Assembly: GCF_024700885.2 (NCBI RefSeq)
Contig: NZ_CP117016.1
Origin: Escherichia coli
GTDB lineage: Bacteria > Pseudomonadota > Gammaproteobacteria > Enterobacterales > Enterobacteriaceae
Direction: 5' to 3' (one strand)
Length of the DNA stretch: 64,000 nucleotides
Shown: piece by piece, positions 3,165-41,878 of the stretch
Layout: each line of letters starts with the position of its first letter
Position numbering within the stretch: the first letter of the stretch is position 1
Position numbers and translations under genes: made by a program
The notes under the pieces: generated by a model
Databases searched by the model: none
What the model saw: the letters and a program-made list of their open reading frames with translations, nothing else
What the model was told of the DNA's origin: nothing

Positions 3165-5303
3165 TTAACCTATCTGCCCATTTCCCAAATGTTTAACGCG
3201 GCGCTTAACTTCTTCCTGCTTACCAGCGTTAAACGGACGTGCATCCGGGCTACCTAAATATCCGCACACGCGGCGAGTCACCGATACACGGGAGGTGTCA
3301 TGGTTACCACATTTCGGACAAGTGAAGCCTTTACTAGTGCACTCGAACTCACCGGTAAAGCCACACTCGTAGCACTCATCGATCGGCGTATTGGTGCCGT
3401 AATACGGTACATGCTGATAGCTGTAATCCCAGACATCTTCCAGCGCCTTCAGGTTGTGCTGAATGTTTGGATACTCGCCGTAGCAAATGAAACCACCGTT
3501 CGCCAGCGGCGGGTAAGGCGCTTCAAAGTCGATCTTGTCGTATGGGTTCACCTTCTTCTCCACATCGAGGTGGAAACTGTTGGTGTAGTAACCTTTATCG
3601 GTCACGCCCGGCACCACGCCAAACTCAGCGGTATCGAGACGGCAGAAGCGGTCGCACAGGTTTTCACTTGGCGTGCTGTAGAGACTGAAACCGTAACCCG
3701 TTTCTTCTTTCCACTGATCCACTGCCTGACGCAGACGTTCAACAATTGCGATACCTTTCGCGCGAAGCTGCTCGTTGTCGTAAACATGCTCGCCGCCGAA
3801 CAGCGCGTTAATGGTTTCGTGGATGCCGATGTAACCCAGCGAAATAGACGCACGACCGTTTTTGAAGATTTCAGAAACATCATCGTCAGCATTGAGACGC
3901 ACGCCACAAGCACCTTCCATATAGAGGATCGGGGCCACGCGCGCTTTCACGCCTTCGAGACGAGCGATACGGGTCATCAGCGCTTTACGTGCCAGCACCA
4001 GACGTTCATCCAGCAGCTTCCAGAAGGTGGCTTCATCGCCTTTTGCTTCCAGAGCAATACGCGGCAGGTTCAGGCTGATCACGCCGAGGTTGTTACGACC
4101 ATCGTGGATCTGCTCGCCGTTTTCATTTTCCCACACGCCGAGGAAGCTGCGGCAGCCCATCGGGGTTTTAAACGAACCGGTGACTTTCACTACCTGATCG
4201 TAGTTCAGGATATCCGGATACATGCGCTTGCTTGCGCACTCCAGCGCCAGCTGTTTGATGTCGTAGTTCGGATCGCCTTTTTTATGGTTCAGACCATCGC
4301 GAATTGCAAACACCAGTTTCGGGAACACCGCAGTTTTACGGTTTTTACCGAGGCCTGCGATACGATTACGCAGGATAGATTCCTGAATCAGGCGCGATTC
4401 CCAGCTGGTGCCCAGACCAAAACCAAAGGTTACAAACGGTGTTTGACCGTTGGCGGTGTGCAGGGTGTTTACTTCGTACTCCAGCGACTGGAAGGCATCG
4501 TAGCACTCTTTGATGGTACGAGAGTTAGCGTAGCCTTCGGCGTCCGGGATGTTCCACTCTTCTGCGGTCTTGCGATGTTTGTTGTAGCTGGCGGTGACAA
4601 ACGGTGCCAGCACTTCATCGATACGGTTAATGGTGGTGCCGCCATAAATATGGCTGGCGACCTGGGCAATAATCTGCGCAGTTACCGCGGTTGCCGTAGA
4701 GATCGACTTCGGCGGTTCAATCTCGGCGTTCCCCATTTTAAAGCCCTGGGTCAGCATGCCTTTCAGGTCGATCAACATGCAGTTGAACATCGGGAAGAAC
4801 GGTGAGTAATCGAGATCGTGATAGTGAATATCACCACGTTCATGTGCCTGCACCACGTCACGCGGCAGCAGGTGCTGGCGTGCATAGTGTTTAGCCACGA
4901 TCCCGGCCAGCAGATCGCGCTGGGTTGGAATCACCTTGCTGTCTTTGTTGGCGTTTTCGTTGAGCAACGAGGAGTTGGTCTGCTCGACCAGACCACGGAT
5001 CTCCTGGTTCAGGCGGCCGCGTTTTTCACGTTCAATGTCGCGATCGTGACGGTACTCGATGTAAGCACGAGCCAGTTGTTTGTATGGACCCGACATCAGC
5101 TGGTTTTCAACTGCGGTCTGGATCTCATTGATATCCACCTGGTTGCGGCCCTGCATCTGCTCGCTGACAACCGCAGCAACAGTGGCGCAATAATCGGCAT
5201 CATCGACTTCCGCTGCTTTAGCTGCACGCAGAATCGCTTCTTTGATGCGCTCTGATTTAAACGGCACTTTGCAGCCGTCTCGTTTCATCACATGCGGTGT
5301 CAT
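3165..5303 (-). CDS. nrdD: Anaerobic ribonucleoside-triphosphate reductase (class III)
   Basis: 712-aa product; C-terminal glycyl-radical region (RVCGYLGSP) and Zn-ribbon cysteines. Confidence 0.95.
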   Translation of the reverse strand: MTPHVMKRDGCKVPFKSERIKEAILRAAKAAEVDDADYCATVAAVVSEQMQGRNQVDINEIQTAVENQLMSGPYKQLARAYIEYRHDRDIEREKRGRLNQEIRGLVEQTNSSLLNENANKDSKVIPTQRDLLAGIVAKHYARQHLLPRDVVQAHERGDIHYHDLDYSPFFPMFNCMLIDLKGMLTQGFKMGNAEIEPPKSISTATAVTAQIIAQVASHIYGGTTINRIDEVLAPFVTASYNKHRKTAEEWNIPDAEGYANSRTIKECYDAFQSLEYEVNTLHTANGQTPFVTFGFGLGTSWESRLIQESILRNRIAGLGKNRKTAVFPKLVFAIRDGLNHKKGDPNYDIKQLALECASKRMYPDILNYDQVVKVTGSFKTPMGCRSFLGVWENENGEQIHDGRNNLGVISLNLPRIALEAKGDEATFWKLLDERLVLARKALMTRIARLEGVKARVAPILYMEGACGVRLNADDDVSEIFKNGRASISLGYIGIHETINALFGGEHVYDNEQLRAKGIAIVERLRQAVDQWKEETGYGFSLYSTPSENLCDRFCRLDTAEFGVVPGVTDKGYYTNSFHLDVEKKVNPYDKIDFEAPYPPLANGGFICYGEYPNIQHNLKALEDVWDYSYQHVPYYGTNTPIDECYECGFTGEFECTSKGFTCPKCGNHDTSRVSVTRRVCGYLGSPDARPFNAGKQEEVKRRVKHLGNGQIG

Positions 5304-7401: not shown

Positions 7402-8823
7402 TTAAACAATGTCCAGCGTGCCCAGGCGGTATTTCCGCTGATAGATAAACGAGGTGAGTACAATCGGGATGATGATGGCGATAGCCATTGCCAGCGCAAA
7501 CACCTGCCAGTAGCTCGGTTGAATCGAGAGAATTCCCGGCAGGCCGCCTACGCCAATGCCATTCGCCATAACGCCGTTCAGGCCGCATAGCAATCCTGCC
7601 AGACCAGAACCAATCATCGCGCACAGCATCGGGAAGCGATATTTCAGGTTGATGCCGTACATAGCAGGCTCAGTGACTCCAAGCCAGGCGGAGATAGCGG
7701 CAGGCACGGAGATCTCGCGTTCATTGTGCTTGCGGCTGGAAATGATAATGCCTATCACGGCGGAACCCTGAGCGATATTCGACAGCGCAATCAGCGGCCA
7801 CACTGGCGTACCACCCATGCTTTGAATCATCTGCAAATCAATAGCAAGCGTGGTCTGATGTACGCCGGTGATCACCAGCGGGGCGTACAGGAAGCCAAAC
7901 AATGCCGCGCCAATCGGAGCAAAGCTGCCGGTCATCAGGTGACGTACCGCAAAGGCAACGCCATCGCCAATCATGCGACCAAACGGACCAATCAGCGCAT
8001 GGGCGAGGAACACCGCGAGGATCAGCGAACAAACGGGCACCACCACCAGATAGAGGTAATCCGGCACGATGCGCTTAAGACGAGTTTCAATAACGCCCAG
8101 CGCCAGCCCGGCTAACAGTGCCGGGATCACCTGCGCCTGATAGCCCACTTTGGCGATGCTGAACATGCCAAAGTCCCACACTTCCGGCAGCTGCTGCCCG
8201 AGCAGATAAGCGTTCATCAGCTGTGGAGAAACCAGCGTTACGCCAAGCACGATACCAAGGATCGGCGTGCCGCCCATTTTTTTCACCGCTGACCAGCAAA
8301 TCCCGACCGGCAGGTAGAAGAAGATCGCTTCACCGATCAACCACAGAAAATCGTAGATCGTTTGCAGGGAAGGGTACATTTGCGCCAGCGTTTGACCGTT
8401 GCTCATGGGCAAATCGCCGATCACATTGCGAAAACCGAGGATCAAACCGCCGCTAATCAACGCGGGCAGCAACGGGAAGAAAATCTCCGCGAAATGAGAG
8501 ATCAACTGCTCATGCCATTTCATATTCTGCCGGGCGGCTTTTTTTACCTGCTCTTTATCAACCTGCGCCTGTCCGGTTGACGCTATCAGTGCTTGATAGT
8601 AATCACCCACGTTGGTGCCAATCACCACCTGAAATTGCCCGGCATTGGTGAAACAGCCTTTCACCATGGGGAGTTGCTCAATTTCTTTCGGTCTGGCATT
8701 GGCCGGTTGGTTGAGGACAAAGCGCAGACGAGTAATACAGTGGCTCACCGTCGCAATATTGCCGCGCCCGCCGACCAGTTCAATCAACCGATCGATATCC
8801 GTTTGGTTTATTTTGCTCATCAT
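7402..8823 (-). CDS. treB: PTS trehalose-specific EIIBC component
   Basis: 473-aa product; N-terminal EIIB cysteine motif (SHCITRLRF) followed by membrane EIIC domain. Confidence 0.92.
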   Translation of the reverse strand: MMSKINQTDIDRLIELVGGRGNIATVSHCITRLRFVLNQPANARPKEIEQLPMVKGCFTNAGQFQVVIGTNVGDYYQALIASTGQAQVDKEQVKKAARQNMKWHEQLISHFAEIFFPLLPALISGGLILGFRNVIGDLPMSNGQTLAQMYPSLQTIYDFLWLIGEAIFFYLPVGICWSAVKKMGGTPILGIVLGVTLVSPQLMNAYLLGQQLPEVWDFGMFSIAKVGYQAQVIPALLAGLALGVIETRLKRIVPDYLYLVVVPVCSLILAVFLAHALIGPFGRMIGDGVAFAVRHLMTGSFAPIGAALFGFLYAPLVITGVHQTTLAIDLQMIQSMGGTPVWPLIALSNIAQGSAVIGIIISSRKHNEREISVPAAISAWLGVTEPAMYGINLKYRFPMLCAMIGSGLAGLLCGLNGVMANGIGVGGLPGILSIQPSYWQVFALAMAIAIIIPIVLTSFIYQRKYRLGTLDIV

Positions 8824-35223: not shown

Positions 35224-35418
35224 TTTTTGGTCCTTCTCTGGTGTTGTCTGGGAAGTGTAGAGCATGGCAGGGCGGGGTGCCTGGAGTGTGACAAAGGTTA
35301 CACATCGCTGTATGCAATGCTGAAAATTTCAGCACTTAGCGAGGTGCGAGCAAGCTGGCGCTTGCATGGTGGCGTGCGACAGGTATAATCCACAACGTTT
35401 TCCGCATACCTCTTCAGT

Positions 35419-35503
35419 GCCGAAGTGGCGAAATCGGTAGACGCAGTTGATTCAAAATCAACCGTAGAAATACGTGCCGGTTCGAGTCCGGCCTTCGGCA
35501 CCA
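35419..35503 (+). tRNA. leuX: tRNA-Leu (anticodon CAA)
   Basis: 85-nt sequence GCCGAAGTGGCGAAATCGGTAGACGCAGTTGATTCAAAATCAACC...GGTTCGAGTCCGGCCTTCGGCACCA with long variable arm and encoded CCA. Confidence 0.9.
35479..35503 (+). repeat. Island junction (attL-like): leuX 3' end, repeated at 41077-41101
   Basis: 25-bp GGTTCGAGTCCGGCCTTCGGCACCA present twice in direct orientation. Confidence 0.75.
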
Positions 35504-36016
35504 AGTCACTAAATTCCTTACAATACAGGTAGTTAGACAATAAAATCTGTCTCTTTTGCCTGTAAGAAATGCTCTGTTATGTCCCTTGAAAAAGCCGCTG
35601 TGGTTGATAGTGGTAATTGGGATGTTAACTCATAGCGGCGTGTAGTTCCAAGCGTCAAACACGTACTGACTCAACTTGAAAGCTATGACGTAGCCACTGT
35701 CTCTAAACAATCCCAAAAACTTTTAGTGAAGCGCATTTTAGCCCGATGCCCCCGTTCTGCCGCTGTCGCGAGACGCCGCAGGGGATAAACAGGTTTATGG
35801 TGGTCACGGTACTTGCAGACCATATGCAAGCTCTGCCAGCGGTTCGGCCTCGCTCCCCTTGGGTACATGGTCATCCTGATAAGCCTCACTAACTGACATA
35901 ACTGTGATGTAGTCGCCAGAGGCTCCGCTTGTTGTCTTACCACCAACGGGGCTTTATGGATTCTATTGCGGTATGTTTGAAAGTGCGCGGGGGTTCATTC
36001 CCGCGCGTCCGGCGCT

Positions 36017-36931
36017 TTATGGTAAGTATTTAAGTATTTCTGCTGCCCAGTTTACACGGTGGATGACACGGGCATGGTGCAAGTTTCCGTCTAGTATTTC
36101 GGCTTTAGTTAGCTGGGATAACTGCTGCCAATTATTGTTAAGTATATAAGTTGCGTTATTACATTGTGAGCTTTCTAGCACGTAAATGTTTTGGCCTGTG
36201 AACCCAAATATCACGTAGCCTTGGAACCCAGCTTGCCCAACCGCTACGAAATCTGGTTTTTTACTATTGATAAGTTCAAGTCTGCCTTCAACAACAGCGG
36301 TATTGCCCTTTCCCCTGATCTTAATAGCTGAAAGGATTTTTGAGCCGATAGTACTCCAAGGCTGTTGACCCTGAGGCAGGAGGCTCCAGTTTAGTTTTAT
36401 AGATTTACTTTTAACGATGGTATTAAGTTGGTCGTCAACAGTTTCGCACAACCCAAAAAGCTCTAAAAAAAGATTAATGCAGTGAGCCACTAACTCTTTG
36501 TTGTTAGCTGTCAAACTTAGCTTTGGAGAGATGATCAACTTCTCCCCTTGAAGATTCTCTACAATCTTTAACTCTATGCTTGGTGGAGGGGTGAGGATTC
36601 TCTTGTAGCGCTTATACTCAATTTCACGAGTGTCAGTAACTTCTTGAGTTGCGCCCCCTCCGATCCATTGCTTTCTAGTCCATGAAATTTGTCTGTATGC
36701 AGTTTCTTTAGGTGCTGTTTTGTCAGGTACTGATTTGCCATTAGCATTGAATCTGGTTATTGGCCCTAAAATCTTGGGGAGGACTTCTTCACCTAAAGCT
36801 CTTTGACTTGAGAAACCAATAGAGTCCGTTTTCCCCGCATCTGGCAAAGAATGTGCAATGTAGATATCACGGCCATCAAAGTTAGGTATGTAATTATCAA
36901 TATTTCGAATACGCTTTTTCTGAATAAGCAT
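36017..36931 (-). CDS. Hypothetical protein, 304 aa, no family recognised by eye
   Basis: Long ORF with SD (AAGGAA) upstream of ATG; first gene of the island next to leuX. Confidence 0.6.
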   Translation of the reverse strand: MLIQKKRIRNIDNYIPNFDGRDIYIAHSLPDAGKTDSIGFSSQRALGEEVLPKILGPITRFNANGKSVPDKTAPKETAYRQISWTRKQWIGGGATQEVTDTREIEYKRYKRILTPPPSIELKIVENLQGEKLIISPKLSLTANNKELVAHCINLFLELFGLCETVDDQLNTIVKSKSIKLNWSLLPQGQQPWSTIGSKILSAIKIRGKGNTAVVEGRLELINSKKPDFVAVGQAGFQGYVIFGFTGQNIYVLESSQCNNATYILNNNWQQLSQLTKAEILDGNLHHARVIHRVNWAAEILKYLP

Positions 36932-37058
36932 GGATCGTTCCTTTTGATTTTATCTTACTGTTTACATAACCAACCAAGCCGGGCACAATCGAGCCGTTAG
37001 AAACGATAGTGAGGCTAACAATCGTTATGAGTTTGCAGACTCATGGCGGTCATGCTTC

Positions 37059-37094
37059 ATAGACCGGATTCACGCAGGTGACTCCGGTTTTTTT
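37059..37094 (+). terminator. Orphan plus-strand intrinsic terminator
   Basis: About 10-bp stem (CCGGATTCAC / GTGACTCCGG, one mismatch), GCAG loop, followed by 7 T; no plus-strand ORF upstream. Confidence 0.5.
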
Positions 37095-37782
37095 ATGCCC
37101 ATCATTTATACATGAGCACAACATATAGGGTGTGTTAATAAGATTACCCCCTACATGTTCAGCATTCTAGTTAGGATTCTTTGCAGTACAAGGGGTGATT
37201 TTGAGGTTAAATTGAGGTTGTCAAAGGGAAATTTCGACCAACCCTACGTGCCGTAAGGCTTAGGCTGTATGTCAATGTTTCAGAAAAAAAATGAAAATTT
37301 GATCGAGTGCTGATTTCTTTAGCACGAGAACATGAGATCGAACCAAAATATTGCAAAGTTTTGAACAAAACTTGAGCTGCCTCGTGTCTCCATAGCCAAG
37401 ACGAATGCAGTTTAAATAAGCTAAGTCAGCTCTCAAAAGTCCTTTATGACCCGAACCAAAAATTGTACCTCTTAAACCCCCACCGCAAGCGGCTCTCCGG
37501 GGTTTGTGCGCGTGGAGTAATGCGATTGTACTGGGTATGTGCGCACAACCCTCTACAAGCCGCATTCTACCGTTAGCCTATAGCTGAATCCCCGGCTTGA
37601 AAAATTGCACGCTTATGGTTGCCCCTCCCTCAACTGTATAGCTCGCCCGCGCCCCCGTGCGCATGTGCGTGCCCGCGCGTCAGGGGTCGCTGAGAAAACC
37701 CTAAGATTTTGCTCATCCGAGACAACCGTTGCAGGCGCGCGTTGCCGGGGCACACTGTTAGTGTTTGATGGTGTCATCAATC

Positions 37783-37892
37783 GACCGTTTTCTGGCACCT
37801 CCCAATCGCACGCTTTCACACTGTTGGAAAAATAGCCTTGGCTTTTCTGGCAGGCCATCCTAATGTTGGCCTCGTTTTCTGGCAGGGGTCAG
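37783..37892 (+). repeat. Three direct repeats of (C)GTTTTCTGGCA upstream of the recombinase gene
   Basis: cgaccGTTTTCTGGCAcc, ggcTTTTCTGGCAgg, ctcGTTTTCTGGCAgg at about 37789, 37843 and 37875. Confidence 0.4.
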
Positions 37893-37906
37893 ATGGGGAG
37901 ATAACA

Positions 37907-38467
37907 ATGGCAACTTTTGGCTACGGACGTGTTTCGACATCGCAGCAGGATACTGAGAACCAACGGCTGGAGCTTGGGCAGGCTGGGTGGCAAATTGATT
38001 ACTGGTTTGCCGATGTTGTTAGCGGGAAGGTTCCGGCAATGCAACGTAAAGCATTTTCTGAAATGCTCAATAAAATCCGCGATGGTGAAACGTTGGTGGT
38101 AGCGAAGCTTGATCGTCTGGGGCGTGATGCGATTGACGTCCTGCAAACGGTAAGGGCGCTGGCTGACCGTAATATCAAGGTTCTTGTCCACCAGCTTGGT
38201 AACACAGATCTCACTTCTGCCGCTGGGAAGTTGCTATTATCTATGCTCGCCGCGGTTGCGGAGATGGAGCGTGATCTGCTGATTGAGCGCACTCAGGCGG
38301 GACTATCACGAGCAAAAGCCGAAGGTAAGAAATTGGGCAGACCTCCTAAAATCGCGTCAGAAGCCCGTAGAGAGATTTTAGAGAAAAAGAATAGCGGTTT
38401 GAGTATCAGTGCGTTAGCGCGTCAATATGGCGTTTCAAGAGCGACTGTAGCAGCTATTACCGATTGA
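37907..38467 (+). CDS. Small serine recombinase (resolvase/invertase family)
   Basis: 186-aa product from MATFGYGRVSTSQQD (catalytic Ser motif), C-terminal HTH; SD GGGGAG upstream. Confidence 0.85.
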   Translation: MATFGYGRVSTSQQDTENQRLELGQAGWQIDYWFADVVSGKVPAMQRKAFSEMLNKIRDGETLVVAKLDRLGRDAIDVLQTVRALADRNIKVLVHQLGNTDLTSAAGKLLLSMLAAVAEMERDLLIERTQAGLSRAKAEGKKLGRPPKIASEARREILEKKNSGLSISALARQYGVSRATVAAITD

Positions 38468-38480
38468 ATATGGAGAGTTT

Positions 38481-39326
38481 ATGGCTTACACAGCAACTGT
38501 TATCCCTGTAATGATTGCTTCTCCTGGTGATGTCGCTGAAGAGAGACAAGTCATTCGTGAAATGATCCATGAGTGGAATGATATAAATTCAGCTCGTTCA
38601 AAAGTAATGTTGACACCAATTGGATGGGAAACTCATACATCACCCGAATTAGGAGTTAGGCCTCAGAAGTTGATTAATCAAAGATTATTAGTAGATTGTG
38701 ATTTATTAATCGGTGTGTTTTGGACTCGTCTAGGCTCACCGACTGGGAACGAGGCCAGCGGAACAGTCGAAGAAATCCACCGTCATTTGAATGCGGGAAA
38801 ACCGGCAATGATTTACTTTTCCTCAAAGCCTGTTGCCCCTGAAAGCCTTGATAGAGAACAATATGAGTCTCTTAAATTGTTCAAAACTGAGTGCATGCAA
38901 AAGGGATTGATAGAGTCTTTTAATGACTTATCTGATTTCAAAGACAAAGTCCGTAGGCAACTTTCGATAATTATTTCTAGTAGCCCTTATTTGTCTTCTC
39001 TTATATCTACCATTAACAATTCTCCTGATGCGAATACAAGTCAATCTTTGCCAGAAAGTAATTTGTCCGCCGATGCACTCAGTTTGCTGAAATTGGCATG
39101 TGTCGATGATAGCGGAACAATTTATGTGATAAGGCATTTAGGTGGCACGGATATTCAAGCGGGAAATCAATCCTTTGGTGGAAGTTCGGCTAGAGAGGTA
39201 GCCCGTTGGGAGGGCGCACTTAACGAACTGTTATCCTTTGATTATGTGATTGAAAGAGGGGCAAAAGGACAAATGTATTATGTTACTCATAAAGGCTGGA
39301 CATTTCTTGAATCTTTAAATGAATAA
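38481..39326 (+). CDS. Hypothetical protein with DUF4062/TIR-like-looking N-terminal domain, Ser-rich linker and small C-terminal domain
   Basis: 281-aa ORF 14 bp after the recombinase gene; N-terminal pattern VIPVMIASPGDVAEERQ ... CDLLIGVFWTRLGSP ... GKPAMIYF; domain call is by eye only. Confidence 0.55.
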   Translation: MAYTATVIPVMIASPGDVAEERQVIREMIHEWNDINSARSKVMLTPIGWETHTSPELGVRPQKLINQRLLVDCDLLIGVFWTRLGSPTGNEASGTVEEIHRHLNAGKPAMIYFSSKPVAPESLDREQYESLKLFKTECMQKGLIESFNDLSDFKDKVRRQLSIIISSSPYLSSLISTINNSPDANTSQSLPESNLSADALSLLKLACVDDSGTIYVIRHLGGTDIQAGNQSFGGSSAREVARWEGALNELLSFDYVIERGAKGQMYYVTHKGWTFLESLNE

Positions 39327-39362
39327 TTAAATGCGAGGCCATTACATAAGTTTATTTTTGAT

Positions 39363-39391
39363 GTGAGGGTGAATTCCCTCACATTTTTATT
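39363..39391 (+). terminator. Intrinsic terminator after the recombinase/DUF4062-like gene pair
   Basis: Hairpin GTGAGGG-tgaatt-CCCTCAC followed by ATTTTTATT. Confidence 0.6.
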
Positions 39392-39881
39392 CGAAAGAGG
39401 CCGCAATGACTTCTCCTGTTTTTGCGTTGAAAACACAAAAGTATTGAAGCGGAGCTAGCATCCCCAAGCCGTTAACTACCTTAGCTTGTTGCCCAAATGC
39501 CTGAATAATCTTCGCATTCTCATCGTGCCAGAGATAAGTATTAAATACAGGCGCTTCGCTTTCTTGCCACACATGGCGAAACTTCGCTTTCTCATCCATT
39601 ACCTTTTTGCACTCCCTGACCGGGTTATGGTGCGTTTTCGCATAGCATTCCGGGTTGTCATCTGCACATACGATATCTTTTCGTGCTGTCTGATGCTCAG
39701 CACCTACAGCAGAAAAGGCGCATACGCCCAGCACCAATGAGAGAGTGCCCAGAGCACCCCATACAGTTGCGCGTAGCGTGCTGATGTGCTGCTTTGATAC
39801 AGCATGGGCAACTACACTATAACTGGCCCAGCTAATCGCGGCTCCCGCTGCAATCGGTAGTAAAAAGTCTGCTCCCGTCAT
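39387..39881 (-). CDS. Hypothetical small membrane-anchored protein (two N-terminal TM helices, Cys-containing soluble C-terminus)
   Basis: ORF 39387..39938; start preferred at Met 39881 with GAGGG SD; no family recognised. Confidence 0.5.
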   Translation of the reverse strand: MTGADFLLPIAAGAAISWASYSVVAHAVSKQHISTLRATVWGALGTLSLVLGVCAFSAVGAEHQTARKDIVCADDNPECYAKTHHNPVRECKKVMDEKAKFRHVWQESEAPVFNTYLWHDENAKIIQAFGQQAKVVNGLGMLAPLQYFCVFNAKTGEVIAASFE

Positions 39882-40121
39882 GATTCCCTCACTTTCCAAA
39901 CCACATCGCGCCTGATAGCGAACGCTGGTGACGCCCAACCGATGATGATCATCATACTTGTTGGGTTTTAAATGTCACCATTGGTGTTTGTTTTGAATCA
40001 AAAAGGATTGTCATGATACAGCCGATGAATGCTAGTGACTAAGCTCGCTGACGTGAGATTGGATTCAAAATATCTCATATGGAGCGTGGCCTTACAGTGG
40101 TCAAAATTGCACATTCAGTGC

Positions 40122-40586
40122 ATGAAAAAATCCCTGAGAATACAGTTTGGCGAGCGGGTAAAAGAACTGCGCATTGCCACCGGATTGAGCCAGGAGGCCT
40201 TTGCCGATCGGTGCGGGTTTGCACGTAGTTATATGAGCAGAATTGAACGTGGTGGCTCTAATGCGTCTCTGGATGCGATTGAGGTGCTGGCTAACGCTCT
40301 GAGCGTTGAGCCGTGGCAGTTGTTAGCGCCTGGCCCATCTGAAGATAACGACTCGGAACTGTTGGTTCCATACGCAGCCGATGGTTCCTGTTTTCACCCC
40401 GGTTTGGCGAGCACCCGTGATGGCTCGTTTGGCGTAGGTGATAAAGCGGCTCAGAAGCGTTTTGGCACGTTTGCTGAAGCTCTTGAGTATCTTCGTAGCA
40501 TGGAGACAGCAAAATGGCGTAGGCCTAATCCTAGCGGCAACTGGGGTATCGTATCAGCGGTTCGGTGGGACAAACTGAGAAAGTAG
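40122..40586 (+). CDS. XRE-family HTH transcriptional regulator with about 90-aa C-terminal extension
   Basis: Cro/C1-type HTH (LRIATGLSQEAFADRCGFARSYMSRIERG); divergent from the membrane protein gene. Confidence 0.65.
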   Translation: MKKSLRIQFGERVKELRIATGLSQEAFADRCGFARSYMSRIERGGSNASLDAIEVLANALSVEPWQLLAPGPSEDNDSELLVPYAADGSCFHPGLASTRDGSFGVGDKAAQKRFGTFAEALEYLRSMETAKWRRPNPSGNWGIVSAVRWDKLRK

Positions 40587-41076
40587 CTCAAGTGTAAGTT
40601 TATGAATTTTCATGCTGTATGGATGAACAGTATTCATTAGATGCTGATAGTCTTATGTTTCATCAGCCCTTTGTTTCTATAAGAGTGAATAAAACAGCAA
40701 AATGCGGGTGCGTTACGTAGGCGTTACGGTGGCGTTTCGCTTTGGCTCTTAATGGCTTAATTCATATAAATAACATTGAGTTAAATAGTTATTCTGAACA
40801 AGGTCTGCCGGGGTCTAACTGGTTTCAAAATCCGAACGCAGTGGCGTTTATTCAACGTCCACATAGCTGACAAATGTTCTTTCCTCCCGACTCGGCAGAC
40901 CTCCAGAAACATTAAAAGGCAGGTATGGCACGTTGATGTTTTATGCCGCCACGAACACTCGGTTTGATTCCGTCCAGCGGATCAAACTTAATATGTAGCC
41001 CCTAGAACAAAAAGGTCCTACGATTGCTCTCTTAACAGCTAACAGGAACGTGATTACAGCAGGTTATAGAGACTTA

Positions 41077-41101
41077 GGTTCGAGTCCGGCCTTCGGCACC
41101 A
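41077..41101 (+). repeat. Island junction (attR-like): displaced copy of the leuX 3' end
   Basis: Second copy of GGTTCGAGTCCGGCCTTCGGCACCA, followed by the expected tRNA terminator hairpin. Confidence 0.75.
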
Positions 41102-41114
41102 AAAGTATGTAAAT

Positions 41115-41287: not shown

Positions 41288-41878
41288 ATGGCATTAACAG
41301 ATATCAAAGTCAGAGCAGCCAAGCCAACGGATAAGCAATATAAGCTGACTGATGGTGGCGGTATGCATCTGCTTGTCCATCCAAATGGTTCTAAGTACTG
41401 GCGTTTGCAGTACCGTTATGAGGGAAAGCAAAAAATGCTGGCACTTGGGGTTTATCCTGAAATCACACTAGCGGATGCCAGAGTACGTCGTGACGAGGCG
41501 CGTAAGCTGCTTGCGAATGGCGTCGATCCGGGAGACAAAAAGAAAAATGATAAGGTTGAACAGAGTAAAGCACGAACCTTTAAAGAAGTCGCGATTGAGT
41601 GGCATGGCACCAATAAAAAGTGGTCTGAAGATCACGCCCATCGTGTGCTAAAAAGTCTTGAAGATAATCTTTTTGCAGCGCTTGGTGAACGTAATATCGC
41701 TGAGTTAAAAACTCGAGATTTATTAGCACCTATTGTTCCTTTAACCATCCGCAATGGCCAACGGTTTACAGAGCATAATACGAATAGCCGTAGAGCCAGC
41801 CAGTTACGGTGGTCGCGATGGTGTGTCCGCCAGAAAATCACCACGAATACCAGAATCGCGGCACTGACCAGAAAATGA
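41288..41878 (+). pseudogene. P4-type tyrosine integrase, N-terminal fragment (truncated or frameshifted after about 150 aa)
   Basis: N-terminus MALTDIKVRAAKPTDKQYKLTDGGGMHLLVHPNGSKYWRLQYRYEGKQK is typical of P4-family integrases; the catalytic domain is absent. Confidence 0.75.

What the first reader, a model, noticed from the sequence alone, without database searches (positions are those of the whole stretch)
37095..37906. About 0.8-kb non-coding spacer with GC-rich inverted repeats between the divergent island genes
No convincing ORF is present. The region holds an imperfect inverted repeat GGGTTTGTGCGC / GCGCACAACCC (about 37500-37552) and a GC-rich palindromic patch CCCGCGCCCCCGTGCGCATGTGCGTGCCCGCGCG (about 37647-37680), embedded in otherwise AT-rich DNA. 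Such structure could be a structured RNA, a recombination site or a regulatory hub for the divergent genes.
Basis: seen in the sequence. Interest (0 to 1): 0.4.

Follow-up and report, generated by a model that had tools for sequence, protein, structure and literature searches.

The report
Orphaned phage-end mimic beside recombination scar
This E. coli "spacer" is three borrowed non-coding modules joined together: a copied ribonucleotide-reductase promoter, a copy of the DNA-end signal of T7-like phages left by a probable, undescribed phage parasite, and a recombinase site where two mobile islands were fused.

Summary
The inverted repeat (37500-37511 / 37541-37551) and the GC-rich patch (37646-37679) are present, and no ORF is credible. 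Only the repeat folds better than chance.

The 975-bp spacer (36932-37906) lies in an E. coli leuX island and is a mosaic.
1. 37100-37330, read on the minus strand, is homologous to the Klebsiella/Salmonella nrdA promoter. It has two NrdR boxes and points at the 304-aa gene. A probable antisense sRNA lies opposite its leader.
2. 37475-37771 holds both flagged features. It is the conserved non-coding left end of a ~15-kb leuX element with a tyrosine integrase, a helicase and one T7-like capsid gene. Its invariant core (37591-37629) and the GC patch match the sequence where the unique right end of Bonnellvirus phages meets their terminal repeat. I read this as a helper-phage end or packaging mimic of a satellite-like element. 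In this window it is orphaned.
3. 37772-37890 is a res-like site for the adjacent small serine recombinase. The window switches from one island type to another at the centre of its 26-bp crossover site.

The structured-RNA reading is not supported for the flagged repeats. "Recombination site" and "regulatory hub" are right for the spacer, but at other positions.

The parts
35419..35503 (+). tRNA-Leu(CAA) leuX; its 3' end is the attL repeat of the islet
   Evidence: ARAGORN. The exact 3'-end repeat is found again at 41077.
35504..35968 (.). Conserved left-end segment of the satellite-like leuX element; left flank of its cargo slot
   Evidence: Window 35360-35968 is 97.7% identical to the left end of the E2348/69 element.
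36017..36931 (-). 304-aa cargo gene of unknown function, driven by the nrdA-type promoter cassette
   Evidence: ORF list. No Pfam, NCBIfam, PADLOC or PHROG match. 722 homologues, about 45% identical across bacteria and archaea. The AF2 model is confident (pLDDT 88.8) but has no PDB fold match. The same gene, 99.7-100% identical, occupies the same slot in Kluyvera and Enterobacter.
36961..37095 (+). Candidate ~100-nt cis-antisense sRNA gene: -35 TTTACA 36961-36966, -10 CACAAT 36984-36989, three hairpins, intrinsic terminator 37062-37095
   Evidence: Promoter scan. Terminator hairpin z -4.7. Both hexamers are identical in the 73%-identical AB66 copy although the spacer between them differs, and all three hairpins keep pairing through compensatory changes.
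37116..37163 (-). Pair of NrdR-box-like palindromes: 37116-37131 GCACAACATATAGGGT (6 of 6 conserved positions) and 37148-37163 CCCCTACATGTTCAGC (5 of 6), with a 16-bp linker
   Evidence: Sequence scored against the published consensus of C4, A6, A8, T9, T11, G13 with a 15-16 bp linker (PMC12176259). The boxes align with the boxes of the Klebsiella/Salmonella nrdA promoters.
37164..37191 (-). Core sigma-70 promoter of the cassette: -35 TTGTAC (37191..37186), 16-nt spacer, -10 TAGAAT (37169..37164); predicted start near 37157, reading leftward
   Evidence: These positions are conserved in all copies in alignments A3 and A4. That they function as a promoter is inference.
37100..37330 (-). Block homologous to the enterobacterial nrdA promoter region (upstream A/T tract, ATTGACAT, core promoter, NrdR boxes); a portable cassette
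   Evidence: 74-80% identical to the ubiG-nrdA intergenic DNA of Klebsiella and Salmonella and to unannotated DNA on plasmids and phage-plasmids of six genera. It precedes a different ORF in E. coli AB66.
37489..37563 (.).
   Evidence: z -2.5 and -3.5. One compensatory change in the TUM13867 variant, T>C in the left arm with A>G in the right arm. It is absent from several variants of the same element (E2348/69, Kosakonia, Trabulsiella, strain 5735).
37591..37629 (+). Invariant core CCCGGCTTGAAAAATTGCACGCTTATGGTTGCCCCTCCC, homologous to the unique sequence that abuts the right terminal repeat of Bonnellvirus phages; the boundary equivalent to the phage end is 37629|37630
   Evidence: Essentially invariant (isolated single-base differences) in E. 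coli variants and in Kluyvera, Kosakonia, Enterobacter and Trabulsiella. It matches phage megetsur just past its last gene. In J8-65 the annotated 259-bp terminal repeat starts directly after ...CCTCCC. It is unique in the J8-65 genome.
37630..37771 (+).
   Evidence: The GC patch aligns to J8-65 terminal-repeat positions 14-48 at 28 of 34 identities, score 38 against 17 +/- 2.6 for shuffles. Core plus patch scores 50 against 18 +/- 2.6. A content is 16% here, 7% in the phage region and 13-19% in the three native elements measured.
37772..37797 (+). Site I of the res-like site, TGTCATCAATCG-AC-CGTTTTCTGGCA (12+2+12); the hybrid junction lies at its centre (37784-37785)
   Evidence: The window matches KFu019 up to 37783 and ATCC 25922 from 37784. 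Half-site scores are 8 of 12 and 12 of 12. The ATCC 25922 site is CGCCAACAAACG-AC-CGTTTTCTGGCA and the KFu019 site is TGTCATCAATCG-TT-CGATTTTTGCTA.
37825..37884 (+). Putative accessory sites: site II TGGAAAAATAGC-CTTG-GCTTTTCTGGCA (37825-37852) and the site III right half CGTTTTCTGGCA (37873-37884)
   Evidence: Three same-orientation copies of the right half-site at spacings of 55 and 32 bp. The 55-bp spacing also holds for the unrelated motif TGCTACC in KFu019. The left halves are weak.
37838..37906 (+). Putative recombinase promoter and RBS: -35 TTGGCT 37838-37843, -10 TAATGT 37861-37866, RBS GGGGAG 37895-37900
   Evidence: Read from the sequence only. The plasmid variant has TATTTT at the -10 position. 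Inference.
37907..38467 (+). Small serine recombinase (resolvase/invertase type)
   Evidence: Pfam Resolvase 9e-37 plus HTH_7. The best solved relative is gamma-delta resolvase at 1e-25.
41077..41102 (+). Second copy of the leuX 3' end (attR of the islet)
   Evidence: Exact repeat. Window 37775-41102 is 99.2% identical to ATCC 25922 from its crossover site to its attR.

Best explanation
The spacer is a chimera of non-coding modules from two mobile elements that once sat in tandem at the leuX tRNA gene.

The left two-thirds come from a ~15-kb integrative element. It carries a tyrosine integrase, a helicase, HNH and endonuclease VII nucleases, one T7-like major capsid gene and a small serine recombinase. 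It has a cargo slot next to leuX.

In this lineage the cargo is a 304-aa gene of unknown function. It is expressed from a captured nrdA-type promoter with two NrdR boxes. A convergent antisense sRNA probably acts on its leader.

To the right of the cargo is the element's conserved non-coding end module. This module copies the point where the unique right end of Bonnellvirus (T7-like) phage genomes meets their direct terminal repeat. I infer that in the intact element it lets the helper phage's packaging machinery recognise and cut element DNA, so the element is a phage satellite.

The right 135 bp is a res-like site for the adjacent serine recombinase, with a crossover site I and two accessory motifs that overlap the recombinase promoter.

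The window's arrangement arose by recombination between the res-like sites of the two elements at the centre of site I. This deleted the satellite body and the left part of the second island. In this window the phage-end mimic is therefore an orphan relic.

Shown: the homologies, the mosaic structure and the position of the junction. Inferred: packaging function, NrdR control, recombinase binding and the deletion pathway.
For: Mosaic and junction. Different parts of the spacer have different distributions among 5,426 E. coli genomes. The window equals KFu019 up to 37783 and ATCC 25922 from 37784, at the centre of a 12+2+12 quasi-palindrome. Window 37775-41102 is 99.2% identical to ATCC 25922 from that site to its attR. 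Both parent elements are bounded by leuX 3'-end repeats and have their sites in the same orientation.

Recombinase and site. The recombinase is closest to gamma-delta resolvase. The half-site motif occurs three times in 100 bp. The 55-bp spacing is shared with a different recombinase module. Half-sites of both modules share TnnCAnnAAnCG. Tn3 res has three dimer sites in 114 bp with a 22-bp I-II linker (PMC2602789; PMC9943657).

Phage-end mimic. The core matches Bonnellvirus phages (E 9e-7). The J8-65 terminal repeat starts immediately after the core. The GC patch matches repeat positions 14-48 (z about 8). The core is unique in the phage genome. The native element encodes a major head protein (phrog_267, 3e-64) whose closest phage relatives, at 54-56% identity, are the same Bonnellvirus group. 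No other phage gene is shared. The element is 15.06 kb between att repeats. It is present in 59 of 5,426 E. coli genomes and in four other genera with the same layout, two of which carry the same 304-aa cargo at 99.7-100% identity.

Promoter cassette. It is homologous to chromosomal nrdA promoters. The NrdR boxes score 6 of 6 and 5 of 6 with a 16-bp linker. The cassette is conserved up to the ATG in front of an unrelated ORF in AB66.
Against: No experiment shows packaging, excision or recombinase binding.

The central dinucleotides of the two parental crossover sites differ (TT against AC). Serine recombinases normally need them to match, so the event would have been inefficient, or it involved an unsampled parent.

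The left halves of sites II and III are weak, so a three-site res is not proven.

The element shares only the capsid gene and the end sequence with the phage. Phage promoters were not searched for.

IMG/VR held no exact match to the core. Similarity to J8-65 within the core is partial (two conserved blocks), and only the megetsur subgroup matches closely.

The inverted-repeat hairpin has no counterpart in the phages and is missing from several element variants, so its role is unexplained.

The downstream gene is not a ribonucleotide reductase, so NrdR control is inferred from the promoter alone.
Confidence: 0.65

Rival explanations
1. The GC-rich segment (37475-37771) encodes a structured non-coding RNA. 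The inverted repeat and the GC patch would be RNA helices.
For: The repeat hairpin folds better than shuffles (z -2.5 and -3.5) and has one compensatory change. A hairpin just right of the core in E2348-type variants has two compensatory pairs in Enterobacter.
Against: No Rfam match at E <= 1 or at gathering score in native elements. The GC patch (z 0 and -0.9) and the whole segment (z +0.35 and -1.06) do not fold better than chance. No promoter or terminator was found for it. The 39-nt core is invariant, which is not the pattern of a helix-constrained RNA. The segment is homologous to non-transcribed genome-end DNA of a phage.
Confidence: 0.08
2. The ~15-kb leuX element is a decayed T7-like temperate prophage. 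Segment C is then inherited end DNA with no present function, in the native element or in this window.
For: The element has an integrase, a T7-like capsid gene, an endonuclease VII and phage-end-like DNA. Temperate T7-like phages exist (for example LUZ100, PMC10134795, listed).
Against: Only one of roughly 45 phage genes is shared. The same 15-kb layout with intact ORFs recurs in 59 E. coli genomes and four other genera, with near-identical copies in different genera. The core is essentially invariant (isolated single-base differences) while its flanks vary. These point to a maintained, mobile element rather than to decay. Bonnellvirus records show no integrase.
Confidence: 0.15
3. The conserved core is not a packaging or end signal. 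It is another cis-element shared by phage and island, such as a replication origin, a host-factor binding site or a phage-responsive promoter.
For: Function is inferred from position only. In T7 and T3 the right-end packaging region also contains a phage promoter and a secondary origin (from memory, not checked here). The core sits about 150-370 bp upstream of the recombinase gene in all elements.
Against: The core is unique in the phage genome and ends exactly at the terminal-repeat boundary. The consensus scan found no sigma-70 promoter across it. Sigma-32 and sigma-54 readings failed on spacing when checked by eye.
Confidence: 0.2
4. The hybrid junction at 37784 arose by RecA-dependent or illegitimate recombination that landed there by chance, not by the serine recombinase. 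The three direct repeats are only operator sites for autoregulation.
For: The central dinucleotides of the parental sites differ (TT against AC), which disfavours serine-recombinase strand exchange. All 89 window-type genomes are about 99.9% identical and may descend from a single event.
Against: The parents share only about 2-4 bp on either side of the junction, too little for homologous recombination. The junction falls exactly at the dyad of a 26-bp recombinase-type site, next to a resolvase gene, and both parental sites are in direct orientation, as a resolution-type deletion requires.
Confidence: 0.15
5. The site is part of an invertible-DNA switch of the Hin/Gin type that controls the divergent genes.
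For: The crossover site is 26 bp (12+2+12), the hix/gix size (from memory). Gin invertase is the second-best solved relative.
Against: There is no inverted partner site within the islet. All three motif copies have the same orientation. Other near-matches in the window are at chance level, 9 observed against 7 +/- 2.3 expected. No genome shows the segment inverted.
Confidence: 0.03

Closest known systems
res site and resolvase of Tn3 / gamma-delta transposons
   Same: A small serine recombinase with a C-terminal HTH; its best solved relative is gamma-delta resolvase. Its site lies directly upstream of its own gene and spans about 115 bp. The crossover site is an imperfect inverted repeat of 12-bp motifs, and further motif copies lie at centre distances (54 bp from I to II) close to those of Tn3 res (22-bp linker, PMC9943657). 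The natural product is a deletion between directly repeated sites. The overlap with the promoter suggests autoregulation.
   Different: The crossover site is 26 bp rather than 28 bp. The left halves of the accessory sites are weak. There is no transposase or transposon ends: the module sits in tRNA-integrating islands and on plasmids next to a DUF1643 gene. Recombination here joined two non-identical sites with different central dinucleotides.
Helper-derived packaging signals of phage satellites (P4 cos; cos or pac sites of PICIs, SaPIs and cf-PICIs)
   Same: A ~15-kb integrase-bearing island without a full virion gene set carries a short sequence copied from its presumed helper's genome-end region. 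It sits at the end of the element opposite the integrase and next to a variable cargo slot. The element also encodes a capsid protein, as capsid-forming PICIs do. These family features are from memory and from titles seen.
   Different: The presumed helper is a virulent T7-like phage (Bonnellvirus) with direct terminal repeats, not a cos or headful temperate phage. Only the major capsid gene is present: no portal, protease or terminase. No paper describing such a satellite was found. In this window the signal is orphaned.
Concatemer junction / terminal-repeat boundary of T7-like phages
   Same: The sequence is homologous across the unique-right / terminal-repeat boundary of Bonnellvirus genomes. 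It is followed by A-poor, GC-rich short-repeat DNA, as in the phage.
   Different: It is in a bacterial chromosome. Only about 140 bp of repeat-like DNA follows in this lineage. The upstream inverted repeat has no phage counterpart. ATCTGT motifs, which resemble T7 class II pause sites (from memory), occur in some native elements but not in the window.
nrdAB promoter with NrdR boxes
   Same: The block is 74-80% identical to the Klebsiella/Salmonella nrdA promoter. It has two 16-bp boxes with a 16-bp linker that meet 6 of 6 and 5 of 6 conserved positions and sit at and just downstream of the -10 element and start site, as in E. coli nrdAB (PMC12176259).
   Different: It drives a 304-aa protein of unknown function, or in AB66 an 88-aa protein, not a ribonucleotide reductase. 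It is carried on mobile elements and plasmids. It is followed by a structured leader with a convergent candidate sRNA that the chromosomal nrdA leader lacks.

Membership tests
Serine-resolvase res site (Tn3 / gamma-delta type) | The adjacent gene encodes a small serine recombinase with an N-terminal catalytic domain and a C-terminal HTH | tested here: met
   Pfam Resolvase 9e-37 plus HTH_7; gamma-delta resolvase 1e-25 over the full length.
Serine-resolvase res site (Tn3 / gamma-delta type) | The crossover site is an imperfect inverted repeat of ~12-bp motifs around a central dinucleotide | tested here: met
   37772-37797 TGTCATCAATCG-AC-CGTTTTCTGGCA (8 of 12 and 12 of 12). The ATCC 25922 version scores 9 of 12 and 12 of 12.
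Serine-resolvase res site (Tn3 / gamma-delta type) | Two accessory dimer-binding sites (II, III) within about 115 bp | tested here: inconclusive
   The right half-site recurs at +55 and +87 bp, and the 55-bp spacing is shared by a second module. The left halves are only 6-8 of 12.
Serine-resolvase res site (Tn3 / gamma-delta type) | Strand exchange occurs at the centre of site I | tested here: met
   This is indirect evidence: a natural hybrid junction lies at 37783|37784 between two island types. The parental central dinucleotides differ (TT against AC), which is a caveat.
Serine-resolvase res site (Tn3 / gamma-delta type) | The recombinase binds the sites and resolves directly repeated copies | not testable with these tools
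   Needs EMSA or footprinting and a resolution assay.
Known structured RNA families (Rfam 15) | A covariance-model match at or near the gathering score | tested here: not met
   The only match is potC at E 0.36 on a terminator hairpin at 37089-37125. Nothing but tRNA in native elements and phage.
T7-like phage genome-end / concatemer-junction sequence | Sequence homology spanning the unique-right / terminal-repeat boundary of a phage with mapped ends | tested here: met
   score 50 against 18 +/- 2.6 for shuffles, with the boundary directly after CCTCCC.
T7-like phage genome-end / concatemer-junction sequence | The sequence is cut by terminase and forms the physical end of packaged DNA | not testable with these tools
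   Needs sequencing of virion DNA ends after helper infection.
Phage satellite (native ~15-kb element, not the window's relic) | An integrative island of about 10-20 kb with an integrase and att repeats, lacking most virion genes | tested here: met
   15,061 bp between leuX 3'-end repeats, with a tyrosine integrase. The only structural gene is a major head protein.
Phage satellite (native ~15-kb element, not the window's relic) | Carries helper-related packaging sequence and/or capsid-remodelling genes tied to one helper group | tested here: met
   The core plus repeat-like DNA and the capsid gene both point to Bonnellvirus.
Phage satellite (native ~15-kb element, not the window's relic) | Helper-dependent induction, packaging and transfer | not testable with these tools
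   Near-identical copies in E. coli, Kluyvera and Enterobacter are consistent with transfer but do not prove it.
Phage satellite (native ~15-kb element, not the window's relic) | The element is intact in this window | tested here: not met
   No helicase, capsid or integrase homologue of the element is in the window. Only the left end is present.
NrdR-regulated nrd promoter | Two 16-bp NrdR boxes with conserved C4, A6, A8, T9, T11, G13 and a 15-16 bp linker | tested here: met
   37116-37131 scores 6 of 6 and 37148-37163 scores 5 of 6, with a 16-bp linker (sequence against consensus).
NrdR-regulated nrd promoter | Controls a ribonucleotide reductase operon | tested here: not met
   The downstream gene is a 304-aa protein with no family match. 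This is a captured promoter, not an nrd operon.
Hin/Gin-type DNA inversion switch | Two crossover sites in inverted orientation flanking an invertible segment | tested here: not met
   No inverted partner site was found, and no inverted arrangement occurs among 513 genomes.

The most novel reading that the evidence does not exclude
Enterobacteria carry an undescribed family of ~15-kb, leuX-integrating satellites of virulent T7-like (Bonnellvirus) phages. They encode their own T7-like major capsid protein and mimic the helper's unique-right / terminal-repeat boundary so that they are packaged. They also hold a cargo slot next to that signal. In this window the cargo has an NrdR-controlled, antisense-RNA-gated promoter. 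Orphan copies of the signal, as in this window and 88 other sequenced E. coli genomes, might still be cut by the helper terminase and so promote packaging of the adjacent chromosome.
Probability: 0.4. Interest if true: 0.85.

Novelty: new variant of a known kind. Interest (0 to 1): 0.62.

Why it matters
As far as I know and could find, known phage satellites in enterobacteria (P4-like elements, PICIs, cf-PICIs) exploit temperate cos or headful phages. A satellite that copies the terminal-repeat boundary and the capsid gene of strictly virulent T7-like phages would extend satellite biology to a phage group widely used in therapy and biotechnology.

It would also provide a natural, minimal candidate for the poorly defined packaging signal of phiKMV/J8-65-like phages: a 39-nt invariant core. 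The element is present in well-studied strains such as EPEC E2348/69, so it can be tested directly.

The window also gives a clean natural example of a resolvase-type site fusing two unrelated genomic islands. It shows that a ribonucleotide-reductase promoter with NrdR boxes circulates on mobile elements as a portable cassette, which would tie cargo expression to the dNTP or replication state of the cell.

For this particular window, the practical message is that the flagged repeats are an orphan relic and not a new RNA.

Tried and rejected
Rfam at E <= 1 over 35500-39500 gave only a chance-level potC hit on a terminator hairpin. Gathering-level scans of plasmid copies, native elements and the phage found nothing relevant.

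Thermodynamic folding of the GC patch and of the whole GC-rich segment gave no signal.

The spacer ORFs (97, 81 and 76 aa) were checked against Pfam and PHROGs with no hits.

I tested whether the conserved core is an att site of the 15-kb element. It is not: the att repeats are the leuX 3' end.

By eye I considered sigma-70, sigma-32 (CTTGAAA...CCCC) and sigma-54 readings of the core. The spacings are wrong, and the sigma-70 consensus scan found no promoter there.

A scan of IMG/VR viral contigs for the core found no exact match.

The homology break at 37840 in strain AHB10 looked like a second junction at site II, but an IS30 insertion causes it.

The inversion-switch idea was rejected.

I did not derive a phage RNA-polymerase promoter consensus for J8-65, because promoters of phiKMV-like phages are poorly conserved (from memory). 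I only showed that the core is unique in that genome.

Fold-level identification of the 304-aa cargo failed despite a confident model.

E. coli's own nrdA promoter is too diverged to be the source of the cassette; the Klebsiella/Salmonella type is closer.
Full report
**Observation**

The window is E. coli chromosomal DNA at the leuX tRNA-Leu(CAA) island hotspot. The gap between a 304-aa gene (36017-36931, minus strand) and a small serine recombinase gene (37907-38467, plus strand) is 975 bp.
- The inverted repeat GGGTTTGTGCGC / GCGCACAACCC lies at 37500-37511 and 37541-37551. It extends to 23-nt arms.
- The GC-rich patch lies at 37646-37679, inside a 59% G+C segment that follows 38% G+C DNA.
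- The spacer ORFs have no Pfam or PHROG match, and RefSeq annotates nothing there.

The repeat hairpin folds moderately better than shuffles (z -2.5 and -3.5). The GC patch and the 266-nt GC-rich segment do not. Rfam finds nothing.

**The spacer is a mosaic**

Searches of 5,426 complete E. coli genomes show that different parts have different distributions.
- 89 genomes hold the whole spacer.
- About 400 more hold only the last ~130 bp, together with the same recombinase.
- About 60 more hold only parts of 37475-37739, always at leuX and upstream of other small serine recombinases.
- 37118-37329 matches unannotated DNA on plasmids of Klebsiella, Enterobacter, Citrobacter, Kosakonia, Leclercia and Salmonella at 74-80% identity.

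**Module 1: a captured nrdA promoter (37100-37330, read on the minus strand)**

Two of the 'plasmid' hits are chromosome-like DNA in which the match lies in the ubiG-nrdA intergenic region, directly upstream of nrdA. Alignments show these shared features:
- an upstream A/T tract and ATTGACAT;
- a TTGTAC-16 nt-TAGAAT core promoter (window 37191-37164);
- two palindromes.

Published work defines the NrdR box as 16 bp with conserved C4, A6, A8, T9, T11 and G13 and a 15-16 bp linker. It places the boxes at and downstream of the nrdAB -10 element (PMC12176259; bioRxiv 10.64898/2026.05.11.724285). The window box at 37116-37131 meets 6 of 6 positions, the box at 37148-37163 meets 5 of 6, and the linker is 16 bp.

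The cassette points at the 304-aa gene. E. coli's own nrdA promoter is much more diverged, so the cassette was acquired.

In E. coli AB66, a 73%-identical copy of promoter plus leader runs up to the start codon of an unrelated 88-aa ORF. The cassette is therefore portable.

Within the leader, three hairpins keep pairing through compensatory changes. On the opposite strand, TTTACA-17 nt-CACAAT hexamers are conserved while the spacer between them is not. A strong hairpin plus U7 (37062-37095, z -4.7) ends that strand's transcript. This suggests a ~100-nt antisense sRNA just left of the finding's start.

The 304-aa protein belongs to a widespread family with no known domain. Its predicted structure is confident, but no solved structure resembles it.

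**Module 2: the flagged GC-rich segment (37475-37771)**

In other strains this segment lies at leuX, upstream of a serine recombinase, followed by a DEAD/DEAH helicase and many small genes.

In E2348/69 the leuX 3' end is repeated 15,061 bp downstream, next to a tyrosine integrase. This defines one integrative element. Its order is:
1. leuX
2. 465 conserved bp
3. variable cargo
4. segment C
5. res-like site
6. serine recombinase
7. a 1.27-kb unannotated gap
8. helicase
9. small ORFs
10. a 331-aa protein
11. HNH nuclease
12. endonuclease VII
13. an AbiTii-domain protein
14. integrase

The 331-aa protein matches a phage major head protein (phrog_267, E 3e-64).

Across E. coli variants and Kluyvera, Kosakonia, Enterobacter and Trabulsiella, the only constant part of segment C is a core of about 40 nt, CCCGGCTTGAAAAATTGCACGCTTATGGTTGCCCCTCCC. 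Only isolated single-base differences occur in it, with no wobble-type pattern. Its flanks vary.

The same core occurs in T7-like phages of the genus Bonnellvirus, just past their last gene. In J8-65 the record carries identical 259-bp terminal repeats. The right repeat begins directly after ...GGGCCTCCC, with TCGACCCGAAGGAGCGCCTGCGCCCCCGTACGCCTGTGCGCG.
- The window core plus GC patch aligns across this boundary with score 50, against 18 +/- 2.6 for shuffles.
- The GC patch alone matches repeat positions 14-48 at 28 of 34 identities.
- The core is unique in the phage genome.
- The element's capsid protein is most similar, at 54-56%, to the capsids of the same phage group.
- Nothing else is shared between element and phage.

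The element occurs in 59 of 5,426 E. coli genomes. Near-identical copies, including the 304-aa cargo, occur in Kluyvera and Enterobacter.

I infer a satellite-like element that uses a mimic of the helper's genome end. No paper describing this was found, although the searchable library is incomplete.

The inverted-repeat hairpin lies 28-100 nt left of the core. It has one compensatory change and is absent from several variants. Its role is open.

**Module 3: a res-like site and the hybrid junction (37772-37906)**

The recombinase is of the resolvase/invertase type, and its best solved relative is gamma-delta resolvase. Upstream of it, CGTTTTCTGGCA occurs three times in the same orientation, at 37786, 37841 and 37873.

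The first copy forms a 12+2+12 quasi-palindrome with TGTCATCAATCG. The second forms TGGAAAAATAGC-CTTG-GCTTTTCTGGCA. The I-II centre distance is 54 bp. By comparison, Tn3 res is 114 bp, has three dimer sites and has a 22-bp I-II linker (PMC2602789; PMC9943657).

A different recombinase module (KFu019, E2348/69; 47% identical protein) has its own motif at the same 55-bp spacing, and its half-sites share the pattern TnnCAnnAAnCG.

The window is identical to KFu019 up to 37783. It is identical to ATCC 25922 from 37784, which is the centre of site I.

The ATCC 25922 island is itself a 7.3-kb element bounded by leuX repeats. Window 37775-41102 matches it at 99.2%, from the site to its attR. The window has no other gene of the satellite-like element.

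The simplest history is as follows. The two elements sat in tandem at leuX with their sites as direct repeats. A resolution-type deletion between the sites removed the satellite body and the left part of the second island.

The caveat is that the parental central dinucleotides differ (TT against AC). No inverted partner site exists, so an inversion switch is excluded.

**Verdict**

The structured-RNA interpretation of the flagged repeats is not supported. A recombination site and regulatory DNA are present in the spacer, but at other positions.

The flagged repeats are best read as an orphaned copy of a T7-like phage end signal, left by a satellite-like element. The homologies, the mosaic and the junction are shown. 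The packaging function, NrdR control and recombinase action are inferred and need the experiments listed above.

Noticed in passing
window 36961-37095 (+ strand); L019 ~4040-4175: Candidate ~100-nt cis-antisense sRNA opposite the leader of the NrdR-box promoter. Its -35 and -10 hexamers are conserved with a diverged spacer. It has three hairpins with compensatory changes and a strong intrinsic terminator. It has no Rfam family.
   Followed up: partly
L011 4109-5001, L012 4381-5001, L014 1388-2183, L015 1915-2501: On plasmids and SSU5-like phage-plasmids, the same nrdA-type promoter cassette is followed by at least 600 nt with no annotated gene and no convincing ORF. The first ~200 nt are conserved among plasmids and start with a similar hairpin. 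This may be an NrdR-controlled non-coding RNA.
   Followed up: partly
window 36017-36931 (-): The 304-aa cargo protein belongs to a family of ~305-aa proteins that are about 45% identical from Enterobacteria to Kosmotoga, cyanobacteria and Methanobacterium. It has no Pfam domain. The AF2 model is confident (pLDDT 88.8), includes a long beta-hairpin at residues 76-108, and has no whole-fold PDB match. It may be an uncharacterised single-gene defence or toxin protein.
   Followed up: partly
L013 3885-5151 (also L003 7154-8414, L004 7249-8729, L006 7551-8813): Every copy of the satellite-like element has an unannotated gap of about 1.26-1.48 kb between the serine recombinase and the helicase gene. 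Rfam finds nothing there. It could hold an origin, promoters or an unannotated gene.
   Followed up: no
window 38481-39326 (+) and neighbours; L027 4782-6557; L002 9847-10671: The genes to the right of the window-type recombinase vary between strains and look defence-related. Here it is a DUF4062 protein matching PADLOC PDC-S60 (1e-26). In THO-010 it is an AIPR protein, and in ATCC 25922 an AbiJ-NTD4 protein lies further right. The recombinase's usual left neighbour is a DUF1643 gene.
   Followed up: no
L004 6313 and 6335; L003 6379; L010 3297: ATCTGT motifs, which resemble the T7 RNA polymerase class II pause signal at the concatemer junction (from memory), occur in the A-poor region of long-type elements and of phage megetsur. 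They do not occur in the window spacer.
   Followed up: partly
L013 2946-3020; L023 ~8440-8470: Just right of the core in E2348-type elements there is a hairpin CCCAGCC-GAAG-GGCTGGG. In Enterobacter chuandaensis it reads CCTCGCC-GAAG-GGCGAGG, which is two compensatory pairs.
   Followed up: no
window 41288-41878 and rightward: Beyond the islet's attR repeat lie a truncated tyrosine integrase and a series of IS remnants (IS66, IS4, IS21/IS100, IS110 in the ST648 annotation). The leuX locus therefore holds several stacked, decayed islands.
   Followed up: no
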